NCBI GenBank assembly: GCA_039586895.1
Contig: JBDHJM010000007.1
Location: 11,263 to 75,262 of the forward strand
Source of the DNA: Gemmatimonadota bacterium
Lineage (GTDB): Bacteria > Gemmatimonadota > Gemmatimonadetes > Gemmatimonadales > GWC2-71-9
Length of the DNA: 64,000 bases
Direction of reading: 5' to 3'
How positions within the stretch are numbered: the stretch's first letter is position 1; each line of letters starts with the position of its first letter. The notes under the pieces were generated by a model. The model ran no database searches. It worked only from the letters and a program-made list of their open reading frames with translations, and was not told the origin of the DNA. Of this stretch, positions 1,959 through 59,383 are shown piece by piece. Made by a program: the position numbers and the translations under genes.

Positions 1959-1970
1959 GACAGTTCGGCC

Positions 1971-5238: not shown

Positions 5239-5240
5239 GA

Positions 5241-5516: not shown

Positions 5517-5517
5517 G

Positions 5518-8131: not shown

Positions 8132-8249
8132 GTGCGTCTCGATGTTGGTGGTTTGTCCGGTAACAACAATCGGCGGTCCACGGTGCCCGGAAACGGATGC
8201 CCCGCCCCAGCTCCCCGCGAACCGCCTGCCATACTGCCCTGCCGAGCGG

Positions 8250-8540
8250 TTAGTACGCCCCGCGTACCTCGTGCTCGCCGTGAATCCGGCTGTGGATCAG
8301 GCCCAGGAACCGTTTGGCGAGCTTGTCCGCCTCGCTCTCTCCGACCTGATCGGTCTTCACGGTGATCAACGTGTAGTGCCCACCCTCGGCCTGGACGCGC
8401 ATGTCGATGCGGCCCACGCCGCCCGAGAAGGATCGGGTCTGGCCGTCCGACCCGACGGGCTCGAGGCGGCTGCTGAAGTAACGGTCCGCCTCGGCCAGCA
8501 CGTCGGCCGGTGGCAGCGATGTCCGGTGGAAGTAGCGCAT
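8250..8540 (-). CDS. hypothetical protein (96 aa) between copA and copZ
   Basis: Same strand, 3 nt downstream of the copA stop, with coding bias. No motif recognised. Confidence 0.45.
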   Translation of the reverse strand: MRYFHRTSLPPADVLAEADRYFSSRLEPVGSDGQTRSFSGGVGRIDMRVQAEGGHYTLITVKTDQVGESEADKLAKRFLGLIHSRIHGEHEVRGAY

Positions 8541-8543
8541 CGT

Positions 8544-11096: not shown

Positions 11097-11520
11097 GCTT
11101 GGCGTGCCCCTTCCCCAGATTGGCGCGGGCTGCGTCGCGCCCGACCTCGGCCACCACGCGGCCCTTTAGCACCTTCTTGCCGCAGCGGAAGGGGTAGTCG
11201 CCGGGCTCCTTGGGGGTGAACTGGACCATCGTGGTCTGGAACGCCGGCAGCTCCTCGTCGATGCCGAGCCCCTCGAAGACCACCCGCTCCGAGCACTCCG
11301 CAGTCTCGTCGCGATAGAAGTAGAGGCGGACCGGGCGGCCCGCCTCCACTGAAATCGTCGCTGGATCGTACCCGTCCTTCACGCGAACACGGACTTCCTG
11401 CACCACACTCTTGCCCGGCGCCAGGCGCGCCGGTGCGCTACGCGACCCCAGAAAGAACCAGAGCTCTCCGGCGATCAGCAGGACGCCCAGTACGATGACG
11501 ACGTAGTCGGCGGGACTCAA
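11089..11520 (-). CDS. membrane-anchored cupredoxin-like domain protein
   Basis: An N-terminal TM helix is followed by a beta-rich domain ([23 protein letters not shown]...GDYPFRCG). This type is commonly found next to copA. The TTG start overlaps the MIPS stop (TTGA). Confidence 0.6.
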
Positions 11521-12848
11521 ACGTTCTCGTACTCGTAGTATTCCACGCCGAGATGGGTAATCTGCTCCTCACCCATCAGCCAGCGCAGGGTGTTCTTGAG
11601 CTTGGTCTGCTGAATGAAGAGGTCGTGCTCCGGAGCCAGTCCGGGTGCGGCCATCGGGCTCTTGAAGTAGAACGACATCCACTCCTGGATGCCCACCAGA
11701 CCAGCCCGCTGCGCCAGGTCCAGGAACAGCGCGAGGTCGAGCACGATGGGAGCGGCCAGGATCGAGTCCCGGCACAGAAAGTCGATCTTTATCTGCATCG
11801 GGTATCCCAGCCACCCGAAGATGTCGATGTTGTCCCAGCCCTCCTTGTTGTCACCACGGGGCGGGTAGTAGTTGATCCGCACCTTGTGGTAGATGTTGCC
11901 GTAGAGGTCCGGGTACATCGACGGCTGCAGGATGTGCTCCAGCACGCCGAGCTTGGACTCCTCCTTCGTCTTGAAGGACTCGGGATCGTCCAGCACCTCA
12001 CCGTCGCGGTTGCCCAGGATGTTGGTGGAGTACCAGCCCGCGAGCCCCAGCATGCGCGCCTTGAGCATCGGCGACAGCACGGTCTTCATGAGGGTTTGGC
12101 CCGTCTTGAAGTCCTTGCCGCAGATCGCCGCACCCTCCTGCTCGGCCAGCTCCTGAATGGCCGGCATATCGACTGTCAGGTTGGGCGCTCCGTTGGCGAA
12201 CGGCACCTTCTCCTTGAGGCTGGCCCAGGCGTATACCATCGAGGGAGCGACGGCCTCGTCGTTCGCGTCCATGGCCTGCTCCAGCGCCGCTACCGACTCG
12301 TGCTGCGGGCCCGGCTTCAGGAACACCTCCGTGGAGGCGCACCACACCATCACCAGGCGGTCGCACTTGTGCTGGGCCTTGAAGCCGCGGATGTCTTCCC
12401 GCAGCTGCTCCCCCAGGTCGCGCCAGTTCTTGCCCTTCTTGACGTTGATGCCCTCGAGCCGCTTCACGTAGCGCTGGTCGAACACCGCCGGCATCGGCTT
12501 GATGCCCTGCAGGAACTCCTTTATGGGCTCGATGTGGGGCGCGTCCAGCACGCCGGCCACCTTGGCAGACTCGTATGCGTCGTCCGGAATGGGATCCCAT
12601 GCGCCGAACACCATGTCGTCGAGCGATGCGAGCGGCACGAAGTCCTTGATCAGCGGAGACCGGTTCTCGGTCCGCTTGCCCAGGCGGATCGTGGCCATCT
12701 CGCCCAACGATCCGATCGCCTTGGCGTTGCCGCGCCGGACGTTCTCCACTCCGGCTACGAAGGTCGTCGCTACTGCACCCAGCCCCACGAGGAGCACGCC
12801 GAGCGTGCCCTCTGCTGGAGCGACTTCCTTCCGGTTCGTTTCCGTCAC
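11517..12848 (-). CDS. ino1: inositol-3-phosphate synthase (myo-inositol-1-phosphate synthase)
   Basis: A 443-aa protein with a GVLLVGLGAVATT Rossmann start and the conserved C-terminal half (NILGNRDG, SKLGVLE, and others). The GTG start overlaps the upstream stop (GTGA). Confidence 0.85.
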   Translation of the reverse strand: MTETNRKEVAPAEGTLGVLLVGLGAVATTFVAGVENVRRGNAKAIGSLGEMATIRLGKRTENRSPLIKDFVPLASLDDMVFGAWDPIPDDAYESAKVAGVLDAPHIEPIKEFLQGIKPMPAVFDQRYVKRLEGINVKKGKNWRDLGEQLREDIRGFKAQHKCDRLVMVWCASTEVFLKPGPQHESVAALEQAMDANDEAVAPSMVYAWASLKEKVPFANGAPNLTVDMPAIQELAEQEGAAICGKDFKTGQTLMKTVLSPMLKARMLGLAGWYSTNILGNRDGEVLDDPESFKTKEESKLGVLEHILQPSMYPDLYGNIYHKVRINYYPPRGDNKEGWDNIDIFGWLGYPMQIKIDFLCRDSILAAPIVLDLALFLDLAQRAGLVGIQEWMSFYFKSPMAAPGLAPEHDLFIQQTKLKNTLRWLMGEEQITHLGVEYYEYENV

Positions 12849-13540
12849 TGCGGTGTCCTTTCCTTGGCCGACATTTCAGCGAGCGGAGAGGCCCAACGCG
12901 CTTGCGTGGACCGCTTCCGGACTCGCGTGATCTTTCGGACGTGATGAATGCGCTGCCCCACGGTGATCACCGCGAGCAGAGCGAGCACAGCCGTGATGCC
13001 GAGTAGCATGAAGCCGTTGGGACCGGCCCCGAATATCATGGTCGGGAAGCCGAGACCCAGCACCCGCTCGGCGCGCTGAGCGATACCCACCCTGCACTCC
13101 AGCCCCAGCCCCTCCGCGCGGGCGCGGGCGTACGACACGATGAGTCCCGCGCCCAGGGCGGTGATGCCGACTGCGGCCGCAGCGATGCGCCATGCCTCCG
13201 GCACGCCGCCCGCCACGAAGAAGATCGTGATGCCGCCGAACAGCGCCGCGTCACCGACACGGTCGAGCGTGGAGTCGTAGAACGCCCCGAACTTGGTGGT
13301 GCCGCCGCTCTTGCGGGCCACGCGGCCGTCGAGCATGTCGAGCACGCCGCTGAGCAGCAGCAAGAACCCGCCCAGCCGCACGGCGCCCAGGCCGAAGGCG
13401 GCCGCCGACCCGACGAGGACCAGTGTCCCCACCGTGGTGATCGCGTTCGGAGAGGCCCCGACCGCCACCAGACCGTTGACGATTGGGGCCAGCATGGCCT
13501 CGTTGGCGCGGCGCAGCCAACCGGGTATCAGGGACGCCAT
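12845..13540 (-). CDS. CDP-alcohol phosphatidyltransferase (phosphatidylinositol-phosphate synthase-like)
   Basis: Carries the DG(x2)AR(x8)G(x3)D(x3)D motif as DGRVARKSGGTTKFGAFYDSTLDRVGD. The protein is polytopic. Confidence 0.85.
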   Translation of the reverse strand: MASLIPGWLRRANEAMLAPIVNGLVAVGASPNAITTVGTLVLVGSAAAFGLGAVRLGGFLLLLSGVLDMLDGRVARKSGGTTKFGAFYDSTLDRVGDAALFGGITIFFVAGGVPEAWRIAAAAVGITALGAGLIVSYARARAEGLGLECRVGIAQRAERVLGLGFPTMIFGAGPNGFMLLGITAVLALLAVITVGQRIHHVRKITRVRKRSTQARWASPLAEMSAKERTPQ

Positions 13541-49002: not shown

Positions 49003-49205
49003 AGTGGCACCGTGGATAGGAGGTTCCGGCAAACCTACGCCTGGCTGAGAGTTCGAGCAAATTGCAGTGTGGCTCAAGGACGGCGGGCGGCGCGGTGAGC
49101 CAGCGCACATGGCGCCCGGACCGCGCGGATTCTCGGGATGCGATTCGCCCCCGGCATCCGCGAACGGACACCGAGGGCGAAAGCGCTGACCCAGAAACCT
49201 CGGCG

Positions 49206-49592
49206 CTACTGAACCGTCAGCGCCATCCCTGTGACCGTCACCAGCTCGTAGTCCGGCTCCGAAGCCTCCAGCAGCTGGCCGATGTACGCAGCCGCCTGTC
49301 GCGTGTCGGGCACGGCGATTCTCAGCAGCGGCCCGGCCACTACAGTGCCGGTGACCACCCCCCGCACTTCGGTCGTGCTGATGCGCGTGGTGAATACCTG
49401 ACACGACGTGCAGGCTGCCGTCACCGTATCTATGGTGGCGGGCTCGACCGACGTTACTCGGAACGAGACCGCTCCGAGGCTGGGCACCGGGGTGGTGAGG
49501 TCCATCGTCAGGTTGCCGGCCGTCGGGCCGGAGTCGCAGGCGACGGAAAAGGCAGCCGCCAGGGCGAGCAATGCAACGATCTTGGTTCTCAT
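49206..49592 (-). CDS. hypothetical lipoprotein (128 aa)
   Basis: Has the lipobox FSVAC. The ATG overlaps the upstream M6 protease stop (ATGA). Confidence 0.55.
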   Translation of the reverse strand: MRTKIVALLALAAAFSVACDSGPTAGNLTMDLTTPVPSLGAVSFRVTSVEPATIDTVTAACTSCQVFTTRISTTEVRGVVTGTVVAGPLLRIAVPDTRQAAAYIGQLLEASEPDYELVTVTGMALTVQ

Positions 49593-51616
49593 CGCCCCCT
49601 CCCGCGCAGCGCCGCGATCCGCTCGGCAAGTGCTGCAGCCGTGACCGGCGAGTCACCGCTGTCCACCCAGGCGTGGAAGTCGCCCACGTCATACGCGAAG
49701 TTGCGGTTCCCCAGAAGGTCCAAGTATAGCAGCTCTTCCGCGGTGAGCGTCTGCTCCACCTCGAGCAGCTCGTCGAGCACGGCGCCGACCGCCAGCAGCG
49801 GCGCGGTTACATCGAGCGCAATCATCTGGTCTTCCGTCTGAATGCCGGACGAAACCTGCACCGTGGCGGAGAAGCTCCCTGTCTCGGCAGGCACGCCCGC
49901 CAGCTCCCCCGTGCTGCCGTTCAGGGTCAGCCCCTCGGCCAGTGCGCCGGCCGTGACCTGCCAGGTGTAGCCGCCCAGACCACCACTCGCCGTGAACTGG
50001 TACTGATACGCAGAGCCCATCAGGCCGTCCGGCGGGTCGGCGGGATCCATCACGAGCAGCGCCGCGCTATGAGTGACGACCACGCGGATCGCCCCGGCCG
50101 GACCCAGGGGATCGAGCTGTTCAACCGAGTCCACCGTCACCGCTGTCGGGCTGCCGTCGTTCTTGGCGCTTGACGGATCGGTGTCGAAGCTGAACCGGGT
50201 GGCTGCAGAGCTGCCCGGCCAGGGATCTCCCGGATCGCCCCGATTGACGCCCAACCCGAGTCCATCCGAGCCGTCGGCCTGCATGAGCCGCACCGCCTCG
50301 GGGGAGGTCGCGTTCACCGTGTTCGACCCGGAGCGGATTCGAGCCATCACCGAGTCCACGTGCCAGATGAGGAGCCCACGCCGGTGCAGAGCCACGTCCG
50401 AGCCGACCAGCTGGCGATTCTCCAGCAGGAAGTACTCGTTGGAGGAAGGGATCGGGATCACGTACGCCGTATCGGAGAGCGCCACCGCCGATATGGCCAC
50501 GGCTGTGTCGTTGGGCAGCATCACTTCGGTGACCCAACCCAGCTCGGCCCGCGACCAGGCCTCCATGTGGGCCGGGGTGTCGGGATCGTTCCAGTTGCCG
50601 GAGCCCATCAGGCCCCAGTGGCCGATCCCCTCGCTGTTACGGGCACCGTTGGTGTTGTACAGGTCCGGCAGACCGAACAGGTGGCCGGTCTCGTGCGAGA
50701 TCAATCCCGGCGCCTGGGGCTGCAGCGGTGTGCAGCCGCTGCTGCCTCCCTGGCCACCCTGGACGATGTAGTCATTGACGTCGATCACGCCGCCCCCGGC
50801 CGCCGGGTCGTTCGTGTTGAGCGGTGAGCCGGTCCACCCGCTGTAGACCCACCTATGCGCCCAGATGTTGCTAGTGCCGCACGCGCCGTCCACTTCGGGG
50901 TGCATGATTACGATGGCGTCCACGAGACCGTCGTCGTCGCCGGAGTTGGGCACGCCGTCTGGCCCGTCGTTGTCGAACTGGCCGAAGTCGATGGCACCGT
51001 CGTGGGCCGCGACCATCTCGGCGATGAGCTCGCCCATGGCTCCATCGCCGCCCAAGCCGTTGCTGCTGCCCTCGTAGTAGGTGTCGACGCTGTCCAGGCG
51101 GGTCCATTCCAGCACGGTACCGTTCACCCGCAGGGAGTCGTTAGAGATCTCGAGATAGTAGGTATGCACCGAGTACGGCGGCGCCGCACTCGTGCTGAAC
51201 AGCGTCGTCTCCAACGCGGTGCGCGGAATCGCGGTCACCAGCGCAGTCGAGTCGGTGTTGTCGTACATGGCCAGGAACACAGGCATGTAGACGTCGCCCA
51301 CCAGGATGCCGTTGGCATTCGTGTGAGCCCGCTGCGGGCCCAGCATGCCGGACGCGAGCTGACCCCGCATCGCCCCGCGCCGCGCCGCTATCTCGCGGCC
51401 GCGCCGGATCCAGCCGTTGTTCTGGGAGAACCGGAACGCCCTGGGGTGGCGGTTCAGCATCTCGTAGTAGCCTGGCGGCGGCCTCACCCCGTATCTCTTG
51501 CCCAGCTCCTCAACGTCCGTCTGGGCCAGCAGCACACGGGGGCCCAGGAGGCCCACAGTCAGCGTTAGGAGGGCAACGGCCGTTGGCAGCAAGCGGCGGG
51601 TTGGGCGATCTGGCAT
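49589..51616 (-). CDS. secreted M6-family (immune inhibitor A-like) metalloprotease with C-terminal Ig-like domain
   Basis: HETGHLFGLPDLY (the HExxH...DLY motif of M6), a signal peptide, and a putative Ig repeat YQYQFTASGGLGGYTWQV. Confidence 0.8.
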   Translation of the reverse strand: MPDRPTRRLLPTAVALLTLTVGLLGPRVLLAQTDVEELGKRYGVRPPPGYYEMLNRHPRAFRFSQNNGWIRRGREIAARRGAMRGQLASGMLGPQRAHTNANGILVGDVYMPVFLAMYDNTDSTALVTAIPRTALETTLFSTSAAPPYSVHTYYLEISNDSLRVNGTVLEWTRLDSVDTYYEGSSNGLGGDGAMGELIAEMVAAHDGAIDFGQFDNDGPDGVPNSGDDDGLVDAIVIMHPEVDGACGTSNIWAHRWVYSGWTGSPLNTNDPAAGGGVIDVNDYIVQGGQGGSSGCTPLQPQAPGLISHETGHLFGLPDLYNTNGARNSEGIGHWGLMGSGNWNDPDTPAHMEAWSRAELGWVTEVMLPNDTAVAISAVALSDTAYVIPIPSSNEYFLLENRQLVGSDVALHRRGLLIWHVDSVMARIRSGSNTVNATSPEAVRLMQADGSDGLGLGVNRGDPGDPWPGSSAATRFSFDTDPSSAKNDGSPTAVTVDSVEQLDPLGPAGAIRVVVTHSAALLVMDPADPPDGLMGSAYQYQFTASGGLGGYTWQVTAGALAEGLTLNGSTGELAGVPAETGSFSATVQVSSGIQTEDQMIALDVTAPLLAVGAVLDELLEVEQTLTAEELLYLDLLGNRNFAYDVGDFHAWVDSGDSPVTAAALAERIAALRGRGR

Positions 51617-51788: not shown

Positions 51789-51817
51789 TTGTGTTGGAGA
51801 CCGGTCGGCGGTAAAAT
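51789..51817 (+). promoter_or_regulatory. candidate sigma70-type promoter for the spt operon
   Basis: TTGTGT (51789..51794), a 17-nt spacer, then TAAAAT (51812..51817), about 65 nt upstream of the GTG start. Confidence 0.3.
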
Positions 51818-51882
51818 CGTAGAGCCCGTATCCCGGGTTGCGGGTCGGGCGTGTGCGGTTTTCCCTAATGGGTTGAGGATCC

Positions 51883-53085
51883 GTGGACATACACACGCTG
51901 CAGCAGGTCGCGCTGTTCGATAAGTGCAAGAACTTCACGACCGCGCGCGAAATTCAGGCCGCCGGCCTGTACCCCTACTTCAAGCCCATATCACAGGCGG
52001 AAGACACCGTCGTGGTGATCGAGGGTGAGAAGAAGGTGATGATGGGCTCGAACAACTATCTGAGCCTCACTCACCACCCGAAGGTGCTCGAGTCCGCCAA
52101 GCTGGCCCTCGAGCGGTACGGATCGGGCTGCACCGGCAGCCGGTTCCTCAACGGCACCCTGGACCTCCACGAGCAGCTCGAGTGCCGCCTGGCAGAGTTC
52201 TTCGGCAAGGAAGCTGCCCTCGTCTTCTCCACCGGCTACTCCGCCAACCTGGGCCTGATCTCCGGGCTGGTGGGGCGCGGCGACGTGGTCCTTATCGACA
52301 AGCTGGATCACGCCTCGATCGTCGACGGCGCCAAGATGGCCTACGGCGAGACGGTGCGCTTCGGACACGGCAACCTGGAGCAGCTCGAGCGCATGCTGCA
52401 GAAGCACAGCAAGCGCGGCATGATGATCATCGTAGACGGCGTGTACTCGATGGAGGGGGACATCGCCGACGTGCCGAACCTGCTCAAGCTGGCGCAGCGC
52501 TACGGAGCGGCACTCGCCATCGACGACGCACACGCCGTGGGCGTGCTGGGACCCCGGGGCGACGGCACGGCGGCGCACTTCGGGCTGGCCGACGAGGTCG
52601 ACATCGTGGTGGGCACGTTCTCAAAGTCGCTGGCGTCGATCGGCGGGTTTGTGGCGGGCTCCGACACCGTCATTCATTATCTGAAGCATCACAGCCGGCC
52701 GCTCATCTTCACCGCGGCCCTGCCGCCGGCCAACACCGCAGGCGTGCTTGCGGCCCTCGAGATCATGATCGCGGAGCCGGAGCGGCGCGACCAGCTGTGG
52801 CAGAACACCAAGCGATTCCAGGAAGGTGTGCGCAGCCTCGGGTTCGACATCGGTCCCACCGAGACGCCCATCGTGCCGGTGCTGATCGGCACGCTGCACA
52901 ACACGTTCGCATTCTGGCGCAAACTGTTCGACGCCGGCGTGTTCACGAACCCGGTGGTGCCGCCTGCGGTGCCGGCCGACGAGTGCCGCCTGCGCGCCAG
53001 CCTGATGGCCACGCACACAGCGGATCAGATAGACTTCGCCCTGGACACGTTCCAGCGGCTCGGACGGGAGATGGGGGTCATTTGA
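51883..53085 (+). CDS. spt: alpha-oxoamine synthase, serine palmitoyltransferase-like
   Basis: Similar along its whole length, by eye, to Sphingomonas SPT: GSGCTGSRFLNGT, FSTGYSANLG, HASIVDG, the PLP lysine in VVGTFSKS, RPLIFTAALPP and the C-terminal GVI. The N-terminal YPYFKPI is typical of SPTs. Confidence 0.75.
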   Translation: MDIHTLQQVALFDKCKNFTTAREIQAAGLYPYFKPISQAEDTVVVIEGEKKVMMGSNNYLSLTHHPKVLESAKLALERYGSGCTGSRFLNGTLDLHEQLECRLAEFFGKEAALVFSTGYSANLGLISGLVGRGDVVLIDKLDHASIVDGAKMAYGETVRFGHGNLEQLERMLQKHSKRGMMIIVDGVYSMEGDIADVPNLLKLAQRYGAALAIDDAHAVGVLGPRGDGTAAHFGLADEVDIVVGTFSKSLASIGGFVAGSDTVIHYLKHHSRPLIFTAALPPANTAGVLAALEIMIAEPERRDQLWQNTKRFQEGVRSLGFDIGPTETPIVPVLIGTLHNTFAFWRKLFDAGVFTNPVVPPAVPADECRLRASLMATHTADQIDFALDTFQRLGREMGVI

Positions 53086-54209
53086 CGGTGACGGTGGTCG
53101 TGCGGCCGGTTGAGACGGCCCGCGACCTCGAGCGCTTCATCGCATTTCCATATCGACTTCACCGGGGGGACCCCATGTGGGTCCCCCTGTTGCGCATGGA
53201 CGTGCGGACGATGCTGTCGCGCGAGAAGAACCCCTTCTTCCAGCACGCGGAAGCCCAGTACTTCGTGGCCGAGCGGGGCAGCGGGCGTCGCAGCGTCGTG
53301 GGCCGCATCGCGGCCATCCATAACCACGGGCACAACGAATTCCACGGGGACCGTGTCGGCTTCTTCGGGTTCTTCGAGTGCGAGAACGACCAGGCCGTGG
53401 CCGACGCCCTGTTCGAGGCAGCCGCCGAGTGGCTCAAGGAGCGGGGCCTCGACACGATGCGCGGGCCGGCTTCGTTTTCCACCAACGACGAATGCGGGCT
53501 GACCGTGGAAGGGTTCGACACGCCGCCCACGATCATGAACCCGCACAACCCTCCCTACTACATAGATCTCGTAGAGCGTGCCGGCTTCACCAAGGCGATG
53601 GACATGCACCAGTTCCGCACGGTGAGCAACCAGCTCCCCGACCGGCTGGTGCGCGGGGCCAAGCTGATCAAGAAGCGCCAGGGCATCACGCTGCGCACGC
53701 TGGACGTGAAGCGGTTCTACGAGGAAGTGGACCGCATCAAACCGATGTACAACGCCGCGTGGGAGAAGAACTGGGGCTTCGTGCCGATGACCGAGGCGGA
53801 AATCGACCACATGGCGAAGCAGCTGAAGCCGGTCGTGGTGCCCGATCTCGTGGTCTTCGCCGAAAAAGACGGCGAGACAATCGGATTCGCGCTGGCGCTG
53901 CCGGACCTGAACGTGGCGCTCAGGAAGAACCCGTCGGGAAGGCTGTTTCCGGGCATCCTCAAGGTCCTGTGGGCGGCCCGCAAGGTCACCCGCATGCGGA
54001 TAGTCGCCCTGGGTGTGCTCGAGCAGCACCGCAACACAGGAGCTGACGCCGTGCTGTACCACTGGATCTGGGACCGCGGCTACCAGATCGGATACCGCTG
54101 GGCGGAGGCCGGGTGGATACTCGAGGACAACGCGCCGATGGCCAACGCCCTGGTCCGCATGGGCTTCGAGGCGTACAAGACACTGCGGCTGTACGACCGA
54201 CGACTGTGA
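53082..54209 (+). CDS. GNAT-fold N-acyltransferase-like protein (candidate bacterial ceramide synthase)
   Basis: A protein of about 375 aa. The TTG start overlaps the spt stop (TTGA), and a GTG lies 2 codons later. The fold assignment comes from family recollection (FGFFEC..., WAEAGWILEDN) and the function from gene context. Confidence 0.55.
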   Translation: MTVTVVVRPVETARDLERFIAFPYRLHRGDPMWVPLLRMDVRTMLSREKNPFFQHAEAQYFVAERGSGRRSVVGRIAAIHNHGHNEFHGDRVGFFGFFECENDQAVADALFEAAAEWLKERGLDTMRGPASFSTNDECGLTVEGFDTPPTIMNPHNPPYYIDLVERAGFTKAMDMHQFRTVSNQLPDRLVRGAKLIKKRQGITLRTLDVKRFYEEVDRIKPMYNAAWEKNWGFVPMTEAEIDHMAKQLKPVVVPDLVVFAEKDGETIGFALALPDLNVALRKNPSGRLFPGILKVLWAARKVTRMRIVALGVLEQHRNTGADAVLYHWIWDRGYQIGYRWAEAGWILEDNAPMANALVRMGFEAYKTLRLYDRRL

Positions 54210-55204
54210 GAGCCTTCGTCACGGGCGCGACCGGCTTCGTAGGGTCACACCTCGTCGACACACTCATCGAACAGGGCCATCAGGCCGTGTGCCTGGTCCG
54301 CAATCCCGCCAAAGCCAAGCGCCTGTTCCCCGACCGCGCACCCGAGACCGTGAGCGGAGACCTCTCCGACGAAGGTGCGATGCGGGAGGGCATCGACGGC
54401 GCCGACGTGGTATTTCACATAGCCGGCGTCACGTCCGCCCGCACCCGCGCGGACTTCTTCACCATAAACACCGAAGCCACACGCCGCGTGCTGCGCGCGG
54501 CACAGGCCGCAGCACCCGGCCTCAAGCGCTTCGTGTACGTGAGCAGCCTCTCCGCGGCCGGCCCCACACAGCGCGGCGGGATGCTGACCGAGACGGACCC
54601 GCCCGCACCTGTGAGCGCGTACGGCCGCAGCAAACTCGCGGCCGAGGAGGCGGTACGGGAAGGACCGCTGCCCTGGACGATCCTGCGGCCGCCGGCCGTG
54701 TACGGCCCGCGCGACGTGGAGCTGCGCAGGGTTTTCACCTTCGCACGCTGGGGCATCGCGCCTGTGTTCGGCGACGGCGGACAGGAGCTCACGATGATCC
54801 ACGTGGACGACCTCGTTGCGGCTCTGCTGGCTGCGGCGGGTTCCGACCACACCGCCGGCGGAGTCTACTTCGCCACACACCCCGAGGTCGTCACGGCGAA
54901 GCAGTTCCTGGAGCGGGTGCACCAGACGGTGCGGGAGGTCCAGGGAAGGTCCGCCCGGGCGCCCACCGAGCTTCCCGTACCGCACTGGCTGGTTCGTGGC
55001 TTCCTCGCGGCCAGCTGGGCCAGCGCCCGGCTCACCGGACGGGCCACGGTGCTGTCGCCCGACAAGGCCGACGAGTTCCTGGCTCCTTCATGGGCCTGCT
55101 CGCCCGCGGCGCTGGAGCGGGATACCGGCTGGCGGGCCCGGATCGCGCTCACGGAGGGACTGGAGCAGACCGCCCGCTGGTACCGGGACCAGGGATACCT
55201 ATGA
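54206..55204 (+). CDS. NAD(P)-dependent epimerase/dehydratase-family (extended SDR) protein, candidate ceramide reductase CerR
   Basis: VTGATGFVGSHLV (GxxGxxG) and YGRSKLAAE (YxxxK). The GTG overlaps the upstream stop (GTGA). Confidence 0.7.
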   Translation: MRAFVTGATGFVGSHLVDTLIEQGHQAVCLVRNPAKAKRLFPDRAPETVSGDLSDEGAMREGIDGADVVFHIAGVTSARTRADFFTINTEATRRVLRAAQAAAPGLKRFVYVSSLSAAGPTQRGGMLTETDPPAPVSAYGRSKLAAEEAVREGPLPWTILRPPAVYGPRDVELRRVFTFARWGIAPVFGDGGQELTMIHVDDLVAALLAAAGSDHTAGGVYFATHPEVVTAKQFLERVHQTVREVQGRSARAPTELPVPHWLVRGFLAASWASARLTGRATVLSPDKADEFLAPSWACSPAALERDTGWRARIALTEGLEQTARWYRDQGYL

Positions 55205-56055
55205 GCCGGCTCGACGCGCTGAACCCCGTCGACAAGCTGATCGCCGTCTATCTCGCCTTCGTGACTCTGATGGCGGTGGTCAACCTGGGGCTGGGCGACA
55301 GCTACTTCTGGTGGATTCTCCTGTCGCACGTGCTGATCGGCGTCCTGCTGTACCTGTTCACGCTCCTCACGCCGCGGCAGCGGGCGGGGCAGGTCCTGCA
55401 CGACCTGTACCCGCTCATCCTCATCCCCGCGCTCTACACCGAGCTGGCGTTTCTCAATGTGGGGCTGGGACTGGACACGGTGTTTGCGCACGATGCGATC
55501 GTACAGGGCTGGGAGGAGGCTCTGTTCGGCGAGCAGATATCCTACACATGGATCCGGAACCACCCGTCGGTGTTCTGGTCGGGTCTGCTGCACGTCGCCT
55601 ACGTCACCTACTATCCGATCGTCTACCTCGGCCCGATCCTGCTGCTGGCACGGGGCAAGAGACAGGGCGCACGCAACGTGCTGTTCGCCACGATGGTGGC
55701 CTACCTTATCTGCTACACCGTCTTCATCGTGTTCCCGGTTGCCGGCCCCAACTGGGTGTTCGATCACCCGACCGGCCCGGTGCGCGACGTGTGGAGCGCG
55801 CGCATGGTGTACGGCCTGCTCGGCACCGGCTCGTCGGTCGGCACGGCGTTCCCGTCCTCGCACGTGGCGGCCACGTTTGCAGCGGTGTTCGCCAACTGGA
55901 GGGAGTGGCGCACGCTGGCGGTGATCTTCCTCGTGCCGGCGTCGTTCATGGCGGTGGCCACGGTGTACTGCCAGATGCACTACGCGGTGGACGCCCTGGT
56001 GGGGTTGGCGCTCGCGGTCGCGGTCGCGCTGGCCACACGGCGCGTGCAGGCCTAG
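55201..56055 (+). CDS. PAP2-superfamily polytopic membrane protein, IPC-synthase/sphingomyelin-synthase-like
   Basis: About 7 TM helices. FPSSHV and MHYAVDAL match the H...H-x3-D catalytic pattern of AUR1/SMS-type PAP2 enzymes. The ATG overlaps the upstream stop (ATGA). Confidence 0.6.
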   Translation: MSRLDALNPVDKLIAVYLAFVTLMAVVNLGLGDSYFWWILLSHVLIGVLLYLFTLLTPRQRAGQVLHDLYPLILIPALYTELAFLNVGLGLDTVFAHDAIVQGWEEALFGEQISYTWIRNHPSVFWSGLLHVAYVTYYPIVYLGPILLLARGKRQGARNVLFATMVAYLICYTVFIVFPVAGPNWVFDHPTGPVRDVWSARMVYGLLGTGSSVGTAFPSSHVAATFAAVFANWREWRTLAVIFLVPASFMAVATVYCQMHYAVDALVGLALAVAVALATRRVQA

Positions 56056-56076: not shown

Positions 56077-56111
56077 AGAAAGCCGGCCGGGTCAGTCCCG
56101 GCCGGCTTTCT
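56077..56111. terminator. bidirectional hairpin terminator
   Basis: A perfect 15-bp stem AGAAAGCCGGCCGGG/CCCGGCCGGCTTTCT with a 5-nt loop, between convergent genes. Confidence 0.65.
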
Positions 56112-56132: not shown

Positions 56133-57248
56133 TCAGTGCTGGTGCGCCGAGTGGTCGTCCATGGGCGCCATTTGCCCCGGCTCCATCGCGACTATGTCCT
56201 CGTAGCGGCCCCGCACCTGCTGCAGGTAGTGGCTCCGGTCGAGTTGGTACAGTTCGTTCGAGACGTCCGCGAGCGGCCACATCATGCTCTCGCCAGGCGA
56301 GAAGACGCCTCCAACCACCCCCATGCCACCGGCGAACAGCGTGTCGGCAAACGGGTTCTCGTAGGTCACGGTGACCCGGTACACGTGATCGGGCGTGATC
56401 TTCACGCCCAGCTTGCGGTACAGGCGTCCTATCGTCACGCCCACCACGCGCTCGCCCTCGTCGGTGATCGAGCGTCCTTCCCAAATCAGCTCGCCCGACG
56501 TGACGTCCTCGAACCTGATGCCGGTGGCGTACTCATGCAGGTGGCCGCCGATCGCCATGATGCGGCCAGCCATGGCGGGCCGCGCCTCGTACGACTTGCT
56601 CGACTCGCCGGGCGGCAGATCGAAGGCCTTGTCACCGGCCGGGAACGCCACGTCCAGCTGGAACGGGTAAACACTCATGAAGGGCCAGGGCCGTCCGGCC
56701 TTCACGTACTTGAGCCGCACCCGCACGGTCACACCCGGATGGTCCACCTCGTGCGGATTGTGCAGCATCGCCGACACGACCATCCTCGTCCCTCCTGGCA
56801 CCGGGTAGCCCATGAGGAGCCACGGCATGGACTGATCGCCGGTCTCCTTGCCCACGGCCAGCATGCGCTGCGAGATGGGGAGGAAGAGCTCGCGGTTGGC
56901 GGGGTTGATGAGGTTGAGGTGGTGCACCAGCTCGGTCGGAAGCTGCTCGCCGCTGCTGTCGAGCACCTCGTAGCTGAAGCCGTATAGGTACCCGCCCGAG
57001 GGGAAGGTGAGCTCGGTGACCGGCGGGAAGATCGCGCCATGCCCACCATGGCCTCCGTGACCGCCCGGATCTTCCGGCACCATAGCCATGGCCGGGAGAT
57101 CGACTGGGCCGATGACGACCACGAACTCCCCGGCGTCCTCGTCGTGAACCAGGCGCACCGTGTCGGCCGACTCCTGCGCCTCACTCGCCACCGCCACACA
57201 GAACAGCGCAAGGCTGCACGCAGCCAGTCTCCGGACCTTCGCCATCAT
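56133..57248 (-). CDS. secreted His-rich protein with PHM/DBH-like (type II copper monooxygenase) ligand spacing
   Basis: Has a signal peptide and a GGHGGHGGHG tract. Candidate ligands are H109-H110, H163/H166, H236-x-H238 and M309, compared with rat PHM H107/H108/H172 and H242/H244/M314. Confidence 0.45.
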   Translation of the reverse strand: MMAKVRRLAACSLALFCVAVASEAQESADTVRLVHDEDAGEFVVVIGPVDLPAMAMVPEDPGGHGGHGGHGAIFPPVTELTFPSGGYLYGFSYEVLDSSGEQLPTELVHHLNLINPANRELFLPISQRMLAVGKETGDQSMPWLLMGYPVPGGTRMVVSAMLHNPHEVDHPGVTVRVRLKYVKAGRPWPFMSVYPFQLDVAFPAGDKAFDLPPGESSKSYEARPAMAGRIMAIGGHLHEYATGIRFEDVTSGELIWEGRSITDEGERVVGVTIGRLYRKLGVKITPDHVYRVTVTYENPFADTLFAGGMGVVGGVFSPGESMMWPLADVSNELYQLDRSHYLQQVRGRYEDIVAMEPGQMAPMDDHSAHQH

Positions 57249-57333: not shown

Positions 57334-58794
57334 TCACCCCGCTATTCGGCGTTCCTCGTCCAGTTGGGGCACCCGGCCGTCGATGCCCAACGGAATGGGG
57401 AGGCCAAGGAAGTTCAGCACGAGCGGAAACAGATCCACGGTGCGCATTGCGGCAGGGAGCTGCTGGTTGGCCGCCACCAGGCAGCGCATGTGGTCGTGGA
57501 CGAGCGATCCGTGTCCCGAGCGGTGCTCCGGCACCTCCCAGTCGAACCGCAGGTCGAACCCCTCCGCAGCCGTCACGACCAGGTCACCGGCGCGCGGCGA
57601 CCGAAACAGCTGAGTGAGCTGCACGGGGGCATCCGGAAAGCGGGCCGCGAGCGAGCCCTCGAACCACTCCCGCTCCCCTCGCACACCCTGCCCCAGCCCG
57701 AGCACGTCGCCACTGACGTGCCGGTACTCGATGCGTCCGTCGGGCAGCTCCAGCAGGGTGGCGCGCCCGGCGTGCGACACCAGCTCCACGCCGGATTCGG
57801 ACGTACCGGCAACCAGCGCCACGCCGGGCAGCGCTGCGATGTCGCGCACGAGATGGCGCGAGATGCCGGCCACCTCGCCCTCTTCGATCGCCTCGACCGT
57901 GTGCCGGTGAGGCCGCCGCACTCCCGGACGCAGGTAGAGCTGCGCCGACCCGTTGCCCGAGATCATCACCGCCACCTGCGGGTTGCGGCGCCAGATGAAG
58001 GGATAGTGCAGCACGGGGACGCCGTCCCTCTCCAGCGCGAGGGCGACGTCGGTGTGGCGGTCCACACGCGAGAGCCCGTGGTCGCTCACGAGCAGAGTGA
58101 GCTGATCGCCGTCGAAGCCCCCGGCCGCGGCATAGCGCCCCACGATGCCGTCGAACGCGCGGTACATGTCCAGCACGTCGGGGTGCCAAGGATCCCAGAA
58201 GTGGGTCACGCCGTCCACGCCGGGGAACACGGCGAACACGAACCGCGGGCGCTCCCGCACCGTGCCGCACAGCGCGTTTCCAACGGCGCGCTCGAGAGCA
58301 TCGTAGTAGCCGGTGTAGTGTGCGACTGCTCCCCAGAAAGCGCGTTGGAGCTTCACACGGTCCCGGGAGGGAGGGAGGCCCCGATTGAACGGACTGCACA
58401 AGGCCACCGAGTCCGGGATCATGTCGAACAGGGTGGGCATCTCGTGGGGGATGTCGCTGTTGAGCAGGCCGCTCTGCGGGCCGCAGTAGCTGCGCAGGTG
58501 TACCCGGTCGCGCAGCCAACGGCCGGCGTAGCCCCGCGGGTCGAGCCAGCGGATGCCCGGCACGTTGCAGGTACCCGGATAGCAGCCTGTCAGGAACGGC
58601 AGGTAGGCGACACCGGTAGTGGAGGGGAATACGGTCACGGCGGGCACGGTGCCGCCCGGCTCGAGCAGGTGCCGGCTGATGTGGGGCAGCTGCCCGGCCG
58701 ACACGAGATGCTCGAACACGTCGGCTCGCGCCCCGTCCAGCAGCAGCAGCGTGACCCTGCGGCCCGCCCCGCTCCGCACCTCACTACCTGCCAT
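57334..58794 (-). CDS. alkaline-phosphatase-superfamily protein (type I phosphodiesterase/nucleotide pyrophosphatase-like)
   Basis: LLLLDGARAD, FPSTTGVAY (nucleophile Thr region) and VSDHG. I chose the ATG at 58794, which has GGAGGG upstream. Confidence 0.7.
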   Translation of the reverse strand: MAGSEVRSGAGRRVTLLLLDGARADVFEHLVSAGQLPHISRHLLEPGGTVPAVTVFPSTTGVAYLPFLTGCYPGTCNVPGIRWLDPRGYAGRWLRDRVHLRSYCGPQSGLLNSDIPHEMPTLFDMIPDSVALCSPFNRGLPPSRDRVKLQRAFWGAVAHYTGYYDALERAVGNALCGTVRERPRFVFAVFPGVDGVTHFWDPWHPDVLDMYRAFDGIVGRYAAAGGFDGDQLTLLVSDHGLSRVDRHTDVALALERDGVPVLHYPFIWRRNPQVAVMISGNGSAQLYLRPGVRRPHRHTVEAIEEGEVAGISRHLVRDIAALPGVALVAGTSESGVELVSHAGRATLLELPDGRIEYRHVSGDVLGLGQGVRGEREWFEGSLAARFPDAPVQLTQLFRSPRAGDLVVTAAEGFDLRFDWEVPEHRSGHGSLVHDHMRCLVAANQQLPAAMRTVDLFPLVLNFLGLPIPLGIDGRVPQLDEERRIAG

Positions 58795-58978
58795 GCAGCC
58801 CTCCGCTGAACGAGGATGCCGTGACCGACGAGGCAAGCCGCACGACCCCGGCGAGCCGTGCGGCGCCACTCCGGCCGATAATCTAGCGTGCCGGGTAGGC
58901 TTGAGAAACGTGCCTCTCCCCCCGGGTATGTAACCGGGAGGTTGAATTTTCCGGTCAATCAGAGAACTTGAGGGCACC

Positions 58979-59383
58979 ATGAGACTGCTTGTAGTGCTCG
59001 CCGCGGCGATCGTAGCCGCCTCAGCATGCGTTCCGGGCAGCCCCGTTTACGTGGGGCCCTACGCCGTCGTCACGTTCGAGGGCAACATCTACGTGTTCGA
59101 GACCCGGGAGCCGGCCGGTCTGGCCGAGGTCTGCGCCTTCGGCGCCGACACGACGTGCATCCGGGCGGACGAGAAGGGCCACTATTGGATGCAGATCAGG
59201 GCGGAGATACTGGGGGACAGCGGCGAAGTGACCCTGCGCTTCCTGGCGCAGGGAATGCACCCGGCCGCCGTACACCTGTCTGACCTCGAGGTCGACTCCA
59301 AGACGTTCGTGGACTGCTCCATCAGCAACCGCGCGAGCCTCAGCAGCGAACCGAGAGCCTGCCTGCCCCCGCCAGAAGACTGA
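58979..59383 (+). CDS. hypothetical lipoprotein (134 aa)
   Basis: Has the lipobox VAASAC and six further Cys residues. No motif recognised. Confidence 0.5.
   Translation: MRLLVVLAAAIVAASACVPGSPVYVGPYAVVTFEGNIYVFETREPAGLAEVCAFGADTTCIRADEKGHYWMQIRAEILGDSGEVTLRFLAQGMHPAAVHLSDLEVDSKTFVDCSISNRASLSSEPRACLPPPED

What the first reader, a model, noticed from the sequence alone, without database searches (positions are those of the whole stretch)
51883..56055. Four-gene translationally coupled operon matching the bacterial ceramide pathway (Spt, GNAT-type CerS, CerR) plus a head-group transferase candidate
The gene junctions are TTGA, GTGA and ATGA overlaps. A candidate promoter (TTGTGT-17-TAAAAT) lies upstream and a perfect 15-bp terminator hairpin lies downstream.
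- Gene 1 resembles serine palmitoyltransferase along its whole length.
- Gene 2 is a GNAT-like acyltransferase.
- Gene 3 is an extended-SDR epimerase/dehydratase-family protein (GxxGxxG, YxxxK).
These are the three enzyme classes shown in Caulobacter crescentus to make ceramide: Spt, bCerS and CerR. There they are not arranged as one compact operon. A compact spt-cerS-cerR-PAP2 cassette would predict sphingolipid synthesis in this GC-rich lineage.
Basis: partly seen in the sequence, partly recalled or inferred. Interest (0 to 1): 0.75.

Follow-up and report, generated by a model that had tools for sequence, protein, structure and literature searches.

The report
Gemmatimonadota ceramide operon with Aur1-like transferase
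This is a real, tightly coupled four-gene operon, conserved across the soil phylum Gemmatimonadota, that encodes the three known bacterial ceramide-making enzymes plus a membrane enzyme resembling yeast inositol-phosphorylceramide synthase, so it predicts that these bacteria make sphingolipids carrying a phosphate-linked head group.

Summary
Four + strand genes (51883-56055) are joined by TTGA, GTGA and ATGA overlaps and end in a 15-bp hairpin. The upstream TTGTG / TAnnAT boxes are the only invariant blocks in otherwise diverged intergenic DNA of five relatives.

- **Gene 1** is a serine palmitoyltransferase of the Bacteroidota type. It scores well above BioF and Kbl.
- **Gene 2** belongs to the YghO-like GNAT family. 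It is 35-41% identical over its full length to the ceramide synthase gene of the Sphingomonas, Roseomonas and E. coli sphingolipid clusters.
- **Gene 3** is a full-length homologue (27-40% identity) of the reductase (cerR) gene of those clusters.
- **Gene 4** is a PAP2_3 protein with a His-His-Asp triad and no phosphatase C1 motif. Its best sequence and fold matches are yeast Aur1, the inositol phosphorylceramide synthase.

The cassette keeps this order in 57 of 59 testable Gemmatimonadota genomes. The window also encodes a myo-inositol-phosphate synthase and a phosphatidylinositol-phosphate synthase, 38 kb away.

Best reading: dihydroceramide synthesis followed by phospho-head-group transfer, with inositol phosphorylceramide the leading candidate. 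A compact spt-cerS-cerR operon is not unique, because Streptomyces has one. I rate it a new member of a known kind, of moderate interest. No biochemistry was done.

The parts
51789..51817 (+). Promoter-like site: TTGTGT (-35-like), 17-nt spacer, TAAAAT (-10-like), 66 nt upstream of the g1 start.
   Evidence: Read directly from the sequence. The consensus scan does not call it (8 of 12 matches). TTGTG and TAnnATCGTA are invariant in a 6-genome upstream alignment that is otherwise about 55% identical.
51875..51879 (+). Shine-Dalgarno-like GAGGA, 3 nt before the GTG start of g1.
   Evidence: Read directly. The position is at least 70% conserved in alignment A2.
51883..53085 (+). g1: serine palmitoyltransferase (Spt), 400 aa, Bacteroidota (acyl-CoA) type.
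   Evidence: NCBIfam: Spt-CFB 530 bits, Spt-beta 411, BioF 406, Kbl 385-404. PDB: Sphingobacterium multivorum SPT 432 bits with 49% identity over 384 positions, Sphingomonas SPT about 302, Kbl 272, cysteate acyltransferase 245, BioF about 205-222. Motifs DHAS142, DDAH214 and GTFSKS244 (PLP-binding lysine) are present.
53082..54209 (+). g2: bacterial ceramide synthase (bCerS) candidate, a YghO-like GNAT N-acyltransferase, 375 aa; TTGA overlap with g1.
   Evidence: Weak Pfam GNAT hit only. Full-length BLASTP identity is 41% to Roseomonas, 36% to Sphingomonas, 35% to E. coli YghO and 40% to Streptomyces (E 5e-65 to 1e-87). All of these lie in sphingolipid clusters. A natural Spt-GNAT fusion exists, P0245.
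54206..55204 (+). g3: ceramide / 3-keto reductase (CerR) candidate, an extended SDR, 332 aa; GTGA overlap with g2.
   Evidence: Pfam Epimerase 132 bits. GATGFVG at 7-13 and YGRSK at 139-143. Full-length identity is 34% to the Sphingomonas gene upstream of acp-spt (E 2e-40), 40% to Streptomyces, 31% to Prevotella and 27% to E. coli. The best solved SDR scores only 77 bits.
55201..56055 (+). g4: Aur1-like PAP2_3 membrane enzyme, 284 aa, candidate ceramide phospho-head-group transferase; ATGA overlap with g3.
   Evidence: PF14378 70 bits against PF01569 38 bits. PSSH218-221 and HYAVD260-264 are invariant and there is no K-x6-RP motif. A family profile against the PDB gives AUR1 as best hit, E 0.02. 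The AF2 model (pLDDT 81) has as its top two Foldseek hits inositol phosphorylceramide synthase structures, TM 0.62-0.64 over the full length. It follows cerR in 57 of 59 testable Gemmatimonadota loci.
56077..56111 (.). Perfect 15-bp GC-rich hairpin with a 5-nt loop, between g4 and the convergent gene 56133-57248; a likely bidirectional terminator.
   Evidence: Read directly. The 80-nt fold is -42.8 kcal/mol, z -4.2, and 0 of 200 shuffles fold as well. The terminator scan does not call it because there is no T-run.
12845..13540 (-). Phosphatidylinositol-phosphate synthase candidate (CDP-alcohol phosphatidyltransferase, 231 aa). Possible supplier of the inositol-lipid donor; not part of the operon.
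   Evidence: PF01066. NCBIfam PIP synthase 147 bits (cut-off 170) and BT_1523-type PIPS 107 bits. Best PDB hits are the Renibacterium and Mycobacterium PIP synthases.
11517..12848 (-). myo-inositol-1-phosphate synthase (443 aa), overlapping the PIP synthase gene by 4 nt.
   Evidence: PF07994 324 bits and PF01658 115 bits.

Best explanation
The four genes form one transcription unit that makes a sphingolipid. Three steps are inferred from homology and synteny. Spt (g1) condenses serine with an acyl-CoA to give 3-ketosphinganine. The YghO-like GNAT (g2, bCerS) N-acylates the long-chain base. The extended SDR (g3, CerR) reduces the 3-keto group, giving dihydroceramide. The order of the last two steps is disputed even in Caulobacter.

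The fourth step is inferred from fold, motifs and strict gene linkage. The Aur1-like PAP2_3 membrane enzyme (g4) uses its His-His-Asp triad to transfer a phospho-alcohol head group from a glycerophospholipid onto the C1 hydroxyl of ceramide, releasing diacylglycerol.

The donor is not determined. Phosphatidylinositol is the leading candidate, which would make the product inositol phosphorylceramide, because the same genome fragment encodes a myo-inositol-phosphate synthase and a phosphatidylinositol-phosphate synthase. Ceramide phosphoethanolamine or phosphoglycerol remain possible.

There is no dedicated ACP or acyl-ACP synthetase gene. Together with the Bacteroidota-type Spt, this suggests an acyl-CoA-dependent pathway, unlike the proteobacterial one.
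For: Spt identity.

bCerS and CerR family membership:
- g2 and g3 are full-length homologues of the genes in the Sphingomonas parapaucimobilis (cerR-acp-spt ... lptF-lptG ... N-acetyltransferase) and E. coli PN43 (acyl-AMP ligase-epimerase-acp-spt-lptG-lptF / yghO) clusters; g2 also matches the GNAT of the Roseomonas mucosa cluster (acp-spt ... lptF/G-desaturase-GNAT-NTP transferase).
- These clusters reproduce the published Caulobacter layout, where cerS is CC_1154, cerR is CC_1164, LptF2/G2 are CC_1156/1155 and CC_1152 is CpgD (PMC11324152, PMC13228409).
- g2 and g3 are about as similar to these proteins as the proteobacterial proteins are to each other.

Functional coupling:
- A natural Spt-GNAT fusion exists.
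- The same spt-GNAT-SDR order with 4-nt overlaps occurs in Streptomyces.
- All four genes are in order in 57 of 59 testable Gemmatimonadota loci, down to 42% identity for g4, and the two exceptions carry 100-N gaps.

g4:
- PAP2_3 is its best Pfam family, the one whose hits here include Aur1.
- The triad is invariant and the C1 phosphatase motif is absent.
- AUR1 is the best PDB sequence hit and supplies the two best fold hits at full length. Phosphatases align over only part of the model, TMq 0.44 or less.
- A cerR-like SDR followed by a PAP2_3 gene is also conserved in Prevotella and Segatella copri, with unrelated flanks. S. copri makes phosphoethanolamine and phosphoinositol dihydroceramides (PMC10865984).
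- Bacterial precedent: the Aur1 homologue BT_1522 is genetically required for phosphoinositol dihydroceramide in Bacteroides (PMC9246714).

Inositol supply: MIPS and PIP synthase are in the window.
Against: - There is no biochemical or lipidomic evidence for any step. No report of sphingolipids in Gemmatimonadota was found in the searchable literature.
- g1 scores below the NCBIfam equivalog cut-off (530 against 640). g2 and g4 hit no NCBIfam model.
- The Caulobacter CCNA_01212 and CCNA_01222 sequences and the BT_1522 sequence could not be obtained, so the comparisons are with synteny-defined orthologues.
- The g4-to-Aur1 sequence match is weak (E 0.02 and only over the C2-C3 region). The fold match has rmsd 6.7 A at 18% identity. 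The g4 model is poor at residues 188-211, next to the active site.
- PAP2 phosphatases share the same triad, and LpxE is the third-best hit.
- MIPS and PIP synthase are 38 kb away and lie within 7 kb of the cassette in none of 80 related loci. Genome-wide co-occurrence was not tested.
- No PIP phosphatase was identified.
- The YghO-like GNAT family is very large (8890 representatives at 50% identity). It includes members from Cloacimonas, whose MAGs are reported to have no bCerS or CerR within 10 ORFs of the spt-like gene (PMC11334938). Family membership alone therefore does not prove ceramide synthase activity.
Confidence: 0.6

Rival explanations
1. g1-g3 make dihydroceramide, but g4 is a lipid phosphate phosphatase rather than a transferase. 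It might dephosphorylate ceramide-1-phosphate or a long-chain-base phosphate, phosphatidylinositol phosphate, or another envelope lipid, and so tune rather than build the head group.
For: g4 belongs to the PAP2 superfamily, and phosphatases use the same His-His-Asp triad. LpxE, Bacillus PgpB and E. coli PgpB are ranks 3-5 in the fold search, and LpxE is the third sequence hit. The PIP synthase route needs a phosphatase, and none was identified in the window.
Against: There is no K-x6-R-P (C1) motif and not even an RP dipeptide. PAP2_3 outscores classical PAP2, 70 against 38 bits. Only the Aur1 structures align over the whole protein (TMq 0.62-0.64 against 0.44 or less). Strict operon linkage directly after cerR fits a step that consumes ceramide.
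Confidence: 0.2
2. The cassette makes a related but non-canonical amino lipid. Examples are a sulfonolipid (capnine-type, made from cysteate), a 1-deoxy-sphingolipid made from alanine or glycine, or another N-acylated amino-ketone.
For: Alpha-oxoamine synthases change amino-acid substrate with few residue changes. The cysteate-C-fatty acyltransferase structure still scores 245 bits against g1. g1 is below the NCBIfam Spt equivalog cut-off. 1-deoxyceramides and sulfono-1-deoxyceramides are reported among environmental bacterial sphingolipids (PMC11334938).
Against: g1 is far closer to biochemically characterised Spt enzymes (432 bits, 49% identity to Sphingobacterium SPT) than to the cysteate enzyme (245 bits). 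An Aur1-like enzyme needs the C1 hydroxyl that only a serine-derived base provides (established knowledge of Aur1 and sphingomyelin-synthase chemistry).
Confidence: 0.1
3. g1 is a BioF or Kbl paralogue, and the four genes are an unrelated co-transcribed set with no role in lipid synthesis.
For: BioF and Kbl models still give 385-406 bits. g2 and g3 carry only generic Pfam domains.
Against: Spt models and structures score 120-160 bits higher. g2 and g3 match the cluster-encoded cerS and cerR genes of known sphingolipid producers. An Spt-GNAT fusion exists. The cassette is conserved across the phylum.
Confidence: 0.03

Closest known systems
Caulobacter crescentus ceramide pathway: Spt CC_1162/CCNA_01220, CerS CC_1154/CCNA_01212, CerR CC_1164/CCNA_01222 (PMC11324152, PMC11087976, PMC10865984)
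   Same: The same three enzyme classes are present: an alpha-oxoamine synthase Spt, a GNAT-type N-acyltransferase and an extended-SDR reductase. g2 and g3 are full-length homologues of the synteny-defined orthologues in Sphingomonas and E. coli (g2 also in Roseomonas), at 27-41% identity.
   Different: There are no dedicated ACP (AcpR), acyl-ACP synthetase (AasR) or LptF2/G2 genes. The Spt is of the Bacteroidota type rather than the alphaproteobacterial type. cerS lies between spt and cerR in one overlapping operon, whereas in Rhodobacteria cerS is said always to be in a separate operon (PMC11324152). The head-group genes differ: Caulobacter uses a ceramide kinase and Cpg enzymes for ceramide phosphoglycerate, and this cassette has an Aur1-like PAP2_3 enzyme.
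Actinobacterial compact operon: Streptomyces sp. NBC_01001 plasmid, spt-GNAT-epimerase-condensation domain (L004)
   Same: The spt-cerS-cerR order and 4-nt overlapping junctions are identical. Identities to the window proteins are 47%, 39-40% and 40%.
   Different: The fourth gene is a condensation-domain protein, not a PAP2_3 enzyme. The phylum differs and the operon is plasmid-borne.
Yeast Aur1 inositol phosphorylceramide synthase and its Bacteroides homologue BT_1522, with the BT_1522-1526 inositol lipid cluster (PMC9246714; PDB 9vj4, 9ivc)
   Same: g4 shares the PAP2_3 family and the PSxH ... HYxxD triad, and Aur1 is its best full-length fold match. MIPS and a PIP synthase are present in the same genome fragment, as in the Bacteroides cluster.
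   Different: Identity to Aur1 is only about 18-19%. No Kei1-like partner was seen. g4 is embedded in the ceramide operon rather than next to the inositol genes. It was not compared with BT_1522 directly. The donor lipid is unknown.
cerR-like SDR followed by PAP2_3 in Prevotella sp. oral taxon 299 and Segatella copri (L087, L090)
   Same: The adjacency and order are the same as g3-g4. The proteins are homologous (SDR 30-31%, PAP2_3 25-30% identity).
   Different: In Prevotella and Segatella, no spt or cerS homologue was found within 6-7 kb of the pair. The function of the Prevotella PAP2_3 protein is, as far as I could find, untested.

Membership tests
Serine palmitoyltransferase (alpha-oxoamine synthase, Spt clade) | Scores higher against Spt than against BioF, Kbl, HemA or CqsA models and structures. 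| tested here: met
   NCBIfam: Spt-CFB 530, Spt-beta 411, BioF 406, Kbl 385-404, ALAS 247 bits. PDB: SPT 432, Kbl 272, BioF 222 or less.
Serine palmitoyltransferase (alpha-oxoamine synthase, Spt clade) | Reaches the curated NCBIfam equivalog cut-off. | tested here: not met
   530 bits against a cut-off of 640 for the CFB model. This is expected for a phylum outside the model's seed, but it means NCBI's rule would not name the protein Spt.
Serine palmitoyltransferase (alpha-oxoamine synthase, Spt clade) | PLP-binding lysine and the catalytic His and Asp motifs. | tested here: met
   GTFSK248S, DH143AS and D215AH217 align with Sphingobacterium SPT.
Serine palmitoyltransferase (alpha-oxoamine synthase, Spt clade) | Condenses L-serine with a long-chain acyl thioester. 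| not testable with these tools
   Needs an enzyme assay.
Bacterial ceramide synthase (bCerS; YghO-like GNAT) | Full-length homology to the cerS gene of established sphingolipid clusters. | tested here: met
   35-41% identity over at least 96% of the length to the Sphingomonas, Roseomonas and E. coli cluster genes, E 5e-65 to 1e-72. This is comparable with the 38-46% identity among those proteins.
Bacterial ceramide synthase (bCerS; YghO-like GNAT) | Direct similarity to Caulobacter CCNA_01212. | not tested
   The sequence was not obtainable. The link is through synteny with the published CC_1152-1168 map (PMC11324152).
Bacterial ceramide synthase (bCerS; YghO-like GNAT) | Genomic association with spt. 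| tested here: met
   Adjacent with a 4-nt overlap here and in 53 of 63 related loci. Fused to Spt in P0245.
Ceramide reductase (CerR; extended SDR) | N-terminal Rossmann GxxGxxG and catalytic YxxxK. | tested here: met
   GATGFVG at 7-13 and YGRSK at 139-143.
Ceramide reductase (CerR; extended SDR) | Homology to the SDR encoded next to acp-spt in sphingolipid clusters, above the generic SDR background. | tested here: met
   BLASTP bits: Sphingomonas 134, Streptomyces 173, Prevotella 161, E. coli 98. The best solved SDR scores 77 bits. The best NCBIfam hit, HpnA at 125 bits, is far below its cut-off of 368.
Ceramide reductase (CerR; extended SDR) | Reduces the 3-keto group of oxo-ceramide or 3-ketosphinganine. 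| not testable with these tools
   Needs an assay. The substrate order is disputed even for Caulobacter (PMC11087976).
Aur1 / inositol phosphorylceramide synthase-like phosphotransferases (Pfam PAP2_3) | Passes the PF14378 gathering threshold and scores above classical PAP2. | tested here: met
   70.2 bits (cut-off 27) against 38.2 bits for PF01569.
Aur1 / inositol phosphorylceramide synthase-like phosphotransferases (Pfam PAP2_3) | His (C2) and His/Asp (C3) triad, without the phosphatase C1 motif K-x6-RP. | tested here: met
   PSSH221 and H260YAVD264 are invariant in 20 homologues. There is no K-x6-RP motif.
Aur1 / inositol phosphorylceramide synthase-like phosphotransferases (Pfam PAP2_3) | Fold closest to Aur1 over the whole length. 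| tested here: met
   9vj4_A E 4e-5, TMq 0.64; 9ivc_A E 1.5e-4, TMq 0.62. The next hit, LpxE, has TMq 0.42.
Aur1 / inositol phosphorylceramide synthase-like phosphotransferases (Pfam PAP2_3) | Significant direct sequence similarity to Aur1 or BT_1522. | tested here: inconclusive
   The profile against AUR1 gives E 0.02 over 82 residues only.
Aur1 / inositol phosphorylceramide synthase-like phosphotransferases (Pfam PAP2_3) | Transfers phosphoinositol from phosphatidylinositol to ceramide. | not testable with these tools
   Only the capacity to supply the donor is shown, through MIPS and PIP synthase.

The most novel reading that the evidence does not exclude
Gemmatimonadota, an abundant soil phylum for which I found no report of sphingolipids in the searchable literature, carry a phylum-wide, single-operon route from serine to inositol phosphorylceramide. 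In this reading a bacterial Aur1-type synthase is hard-wired to the ceramide genes and draws on a MIPS / PIP synthase-made phosphatidylinositol pool. The same cerR-PAP2_3 module in Prevotella and Segatella would then mark a so far unassigned phosphosphingolipid synthase of the Fibrobacterota-Chlorobiota-Bacteroidota (FCB) group.
Probability: 0.3. Interest if true: 0.65.

Novelty: new member of a known kind. Interest (0 to 1): 0.45.

Why it matters
If the prediction holds, a widespread and mostly uncultured soil and sediment phylum makes sphingolipids, probably phosphosphingolipids. This would bear on how ceramides and inositol lipids in environmental lipidomes are interpreted, and on how the outer membrane of these bacteria is built.

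The operon is small, at 4.2 kb. It needs no dedicated ACP or acyl-ACP synthetase genes. It is therefore a convenient cassette for reconstituting bacterial ceramide and head-group synthesis in E. coli.

The strict linkage of an Aur1-like enzyme to cerR, also seen as a gene pair in Prevotella and Segatella, gives a concrete candidate for bacterial phosphosphingolipid synthases that are still unassigned. One example is the enzyme that makes phosphoethanolamine dihydroceramide in Bacteroidota, which is still produced when BT_1522 is deleted (PMC9246714).

Tried and rejected
- **Caulobacter sequences.** The paper that defined bCerS and CerR (Stankeviciute 2022) is not held. The Caulobacter sequences could not be compared directly, so I used synteny-defined orthologues from the plasmid collection.
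- **Curated models.** NCBIfam has no model matching g2 or g4. The PDB has no sequence match for g2, and none for g4 as a single sequence.
- **Promoter and terminator scan.** I kept both on other evidence.
- **Naming distant GNAT relatives.** The cluster look-up gave only Candidatus Cloacimonas names.
- **Literature on Gemmatimonadota.** Searches with sphingolipid terms found nothing relevant. The Black Sea study does not name the phylum in its text or its held supplement.
- **Inositol genes next to the cassette.** I looked for MIPS or PIP synthase beside the cassette in 80 related loci and found none within 7 kb.
- **BT_1522 type or not.** I tried to decide whether the Prevotella PAP2_3 protein is of the BT_1522 type. 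Its neighbours are not inositol genes, but without the BT_1522 sequence this stays open.
- **BioF or Kbl reading of g1.** Considered and rejected on family scores.
- **Spurious opposite-strand ORFs.** The ORFs at 53025-54062 and 54865-76 on the - strand were considered and rejected, on third-position GC and homology of the + strand frames.

Full report
**Anatomy**

The + strand of 51883-56055 carries four reading frames: g1 51883-53085 (400 aa), g2 53082-54209 (375 aa), g3 54206-55204 (332 aa) and g4 55201-56055 (284 aa).
- Each stop codon overlaps the next start by four bases. The junctions are TTGA, GTGA and ATGA.
- Third-position GC is 0.84-0.92 in all four.
- A 266-nt intergenic region precedes g1. 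It contains TTGTGT, a 17-nt spacer and TAAAAT at 51789-51817, and a GAGGA three bases before the GTG start.
- Downstream, a perfect 15-bp hairpin (56077-56111) separates g4 from a convergent gene.
- The consensus scanner calls neither signal. The promoter matches only 8 of 12 positions, and the hairpin lacks a T-run.
- When the upstream region is aligned with those of five related genomes, TTGTG and TAnnATCGTA are invariant blocks in DNA that is otherwise about 55% identical.

**Source organism**

Named database relatives of g2 and g4 are all Gemmatimonadota (Gemmatimonadales) metagenome-assembled genomes. The window has 65-71% GC.

**Gene 1**
- The best NCBIfam model is the Bacteroidota-type (CFB) serine palmitoyltransferase, at 530 bits. 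Other scores are betaproteobacterial Spt 411, BioF 406, Kbl 385-404 and ALA synthase 247.
- The score is below the curated equivalog cut-off of 640, as expected for a different phylum.
- Against solved structures, Sphingobacterium multivorum SPT scores 432 bits with 49% identity over 384 positions. Sphingomonas SPT scores about 302, Kbl 272, cysteate acyltransferase 245 and BioF 222 or less.
- The PLP-binding lysine (GTFSKS) and the DHAS and DDAH motifs are present.

**Gene 2**
- Pfam sees only a marginal GNAT signal and NCBIfam sees nothing.
- The family is very large. There are 8890 representatives at 50% identity with E of 0.001 or better.
- A tblastn search of the plasmid collection was decisive. 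g2 matches, over its full length, E. coli YghO and GNAT genes of Roseomonas mucosa, Sphingomonas parapaucimobilis and Streptomyces.
- The annotated contexts are sphingolipid clusters:
  - Sphingomonas: NAD(P)H-binding protein - ACP - PLP aminotransferase ... LptF - LptG - desaturase - N-acetyltransferase.
  - E. coli PN43: acyl-AMP ligase - epimerase - ACP - PLP aminotransferase - LptG - LptF ... yghO.
  - Roseomonas: ACP - PLP aminotransferase ... diacylglycerol-kinase-family protein, CDP-alcohol transferase, two LptF/G paralogues, desaturase, the GNAT, NTP transferase.
- These reproduce the published Caulobacter region CC_1152-CC_1168 (PMC11324152; PMC13228409 for CpgD). There aasR, cerR, acpR and spt are CC_1165-1162, LptF2/G2 are CC_1156/1155, cerS is CC_1154 and CC_1152 is a nucleotidyltransferase.
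- g2 is 35-41% identical to these cerS genes. They are 38-46% identical to each other.
- A 780-aa protein in the database is a natural fusion, 58% identical to g1 in its N-terminal half and 51% identical to g2 in its C-terminal half.

**Gene 3**
- It is an extended SDR with GATGFVG at residues 7-13 and YGRSK at 139-143.
- It aligns end to end with the Sphingomonas gene upstream of acp-spt (34%, E 2e-40). It also aligns with the Streptomyces operon SDR (40%), the E. coli cluster epimerase (27%) and a Prevotella SDR (31%).
- The best solved SDR reaches only 77 bits.
- Like the proteobacterial CerR proteins, it starts directly with the Rossmann motif.
- Whether it acts on 3-ketosphinganine or on oxo-ceramide cannot be told. 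This is disputed for Caulobacter too (PMC11087976).

**Gene 4**
- PAP2_3 (PF14378) scores 70 bits, against 38 for classical PAP2.
- In 20 homologues, FPSSH221 and YCQMH260YxxD264 are invariant. The phosphatase C1 motif K-x6-RP is absent.
- A profile of the family finds yeast AUR1 as the best solved-structure sequence match. The match is weak (E 0.02) but aligned exactly over the two catalytic motifs. LpxE comes next.
- An AlphaFold model (pLDDT 81, pTM 0.84; residues 188-211 are poor) has as its two best Foldseek hits the inositol phosphorylceramide synthase-ceramide complex and the Aur1-Kei1 complex. These have E 4e-5 and 1.5e-4 and TM 0.62-0.64 over the whole chain. Lipid phosphatases align over only part of the model, TMq 0.44 or less.
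- There is a bacterial precedent. The Aur1 homologue BT_1522 is required for phosphoinositol dihydroceramide in Bacteroides thetaiotaomicron (PMC9246714).

**Conservation**
- A scan of species-representative genomes found 396 relatives of g4. The best 80 are all Gemmatimonadota.
- Where at least 3.5 kb of upstream sequence exists, 57 of 59 loci carry spt-cerS-cerR-PAP2_3 in this order. The two exceptions have 100-N gaps.
- Identities to the window proteins range over 70-92% for g1, 57-79% for g2, 43-65% for g3 and 42-80% for g4.
- The overlapping junctions are themselves conserved.
- Outside the phylum, a Streptomyces plasmid has spt-GNAT-SDR with 4-nt overlaps followed by a condensation-domain gene.
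- In Prevotella sp. oral taxon 299 and Segatella copri, a cerR-like SDR is followed directly by a PAP2_3 gene homologous to g4, with unrelated flanking genes.
- S. copri makes phosphoethanolamine and phosphoinositol dihydroceramides (PMC10865984).

**Inositol genes in the same window**
- At 11517-13540 on the - strand, a CDP-alcohol phosphatidyltransferase overlaps a myo-inositol-1-phosphate synthase by 4 nt.
- The transferase's best family is phosphatidylinositol-phosphate synthase, at 147 bits against a cut-off of 170. Its best solved relatives are the Renibacterium and Mycobacterium PIP synthases.
- The organism can therefore probably make phosphatidylinositol, the donor used by Aur1-type enzymes.
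- These genes are not near the cassette in any of the 80 related loci. Genome-wide co-occurrence could not be tested.

**Interpretation**
- I take g1-g3 to make dihydroceramide. Confidence is high, about 0.85.
- I take g4 to add a phospho-alcohol head group to it. Confidence is moderate, about 0.55-0.6.
- Inositol phosphorylceramide is the favoured product, at about 0.3-0.35.
- The main rival is that g4 is a lipid phosphatase.
- Nothing here is biochemical evidence.

**Novelty**
- The pathway, the gene families and the tendency of the three genes to cluster are published (PMC11334938, PMC11324152).
- One published statement, that cerS always lies in a separate operon, applies to Rhodobacteria and does not hold here or in Streptomyces.
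- I found no report of sphingolipids or of this cassette in Gemmatimonadota. The supplementary phylum lists of the two key surveys were not readable, so the phylum may already be listed there.
- The strictly linked Aur1-like fourth gene, and the shared cerR-PAP2_3 module with Prevotellaceae, are the parts most likely to be new.
- I rate this a new member of a known kind, with moderate interest.

Noticed in passing
window 11517-13540 (- strand): A phosphatidylinositol-phosphate synthase gene overlaps a myo-inositol-1-phosphate synthase gene by 4 nt. A cupredoxin gene (11089-11520) and a copper P-type ATPase gene (8544-11096) follow, also overlapping. This is an inositol-lipid gene pair in a phylum for which I found no report of inositol lipids.
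   Followed up: partly
L005 (E. coli PN43, NZ_MG591698.1) 1-10128: E. coli yghO sits beside a complete proteobacterial-type sphingolipid cluster: acyl-AMP ligase, epimerase, ACP, Spt-like aminotransferase and second LptF/LptG copies. YghO is therefore the E. coli member of the bCerS family.
   Followed up: partly
protein P0245 (780 aa; longest contig 819 kb): A natural Spt-GNAT (Spt-CerS) fusion protein, 58% identical to g1 and 51% identical to g2. P0241 (784 aa) matches g2 in two separate stretches.
   Followed up: partly
L087 4750-6762; L090 5984-7960: Prevotella sp. oral taxon 299 and Segatella copri keep a cerR-like SDR followed by a PAP2_3 gene, with unrelated flanks. This PAP2_3 protein may be an unassigned phosphosphingolipid synthase of Bacteroidota.
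   Followed up: partly
window 56133-57248 (- strand): A convergent 371-aa protein with a signal-peptide-like N-terminus, a HGGHGGHGGHG run and no Pfam hit. It is conserved directly downstream of g4 in 35 related loci. Function unknown.
   Followed up: partly
window 57334-58980 (- strand): A type I phosphodiesterase / nucleotide pyrophosphatase family protein (PF01663), present downstream of the cassette in 16 related loci. It could act on phospholipid head groups, but this is untested.
   Followed up: no
window 46885-51616 (- strand); L001 512-5891: Large secreted metalloproteases (an M6 immune-inhibitor-A type and a leishmanolysin-like protein with Big_1 and Big_2 domains), each followed by a small ORF, lie upstream of the cassette. 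The M6 protease is kept upstream in 44 related loci.
   Followed up: partly
L001 6038-6718: In GCA_040961615.1, a second, classical PAP2 gene (226 aa) lies divergently upstream of spt. It is absent from this window, where only 266 nt separate the protease gene from spt.
   Followed up: no
window 53082-53198: Some automatic gene calls start g2 38 codons late (337 aa, P0001). Homology to YghO and the Streptomyces GNAT, and the conserved TTGA junction, support the 375-aa form.
   Followed up: yes
window 41545-46009 (- strand): A molybdopterin oxidoreductase (1017 aa) next to a fused 4Fe-4S / NrfD-like membrane subunit (512 aa). This is a respiratory complex of the polysulfide / Psr type.
   Followed up: no
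window 13592-17665: A NamZ-like exo-N-acetylmuramidase gene next to a 1125-aa fusion of a glycoside hydrolase family 3 domain and a beta-lactamase-fold domain. This looks like a cell-wall recycling locus.
   Followed up: no
proteins P0275 and P0396-P0402: Candidatus Cloacimonas encodes a g2 homologue at 41% identity, although the Black Sea study reports no bCerS within 10 genes of the spt-like gene in Cloacimonadota (PMC11334938).
   Followed up: no
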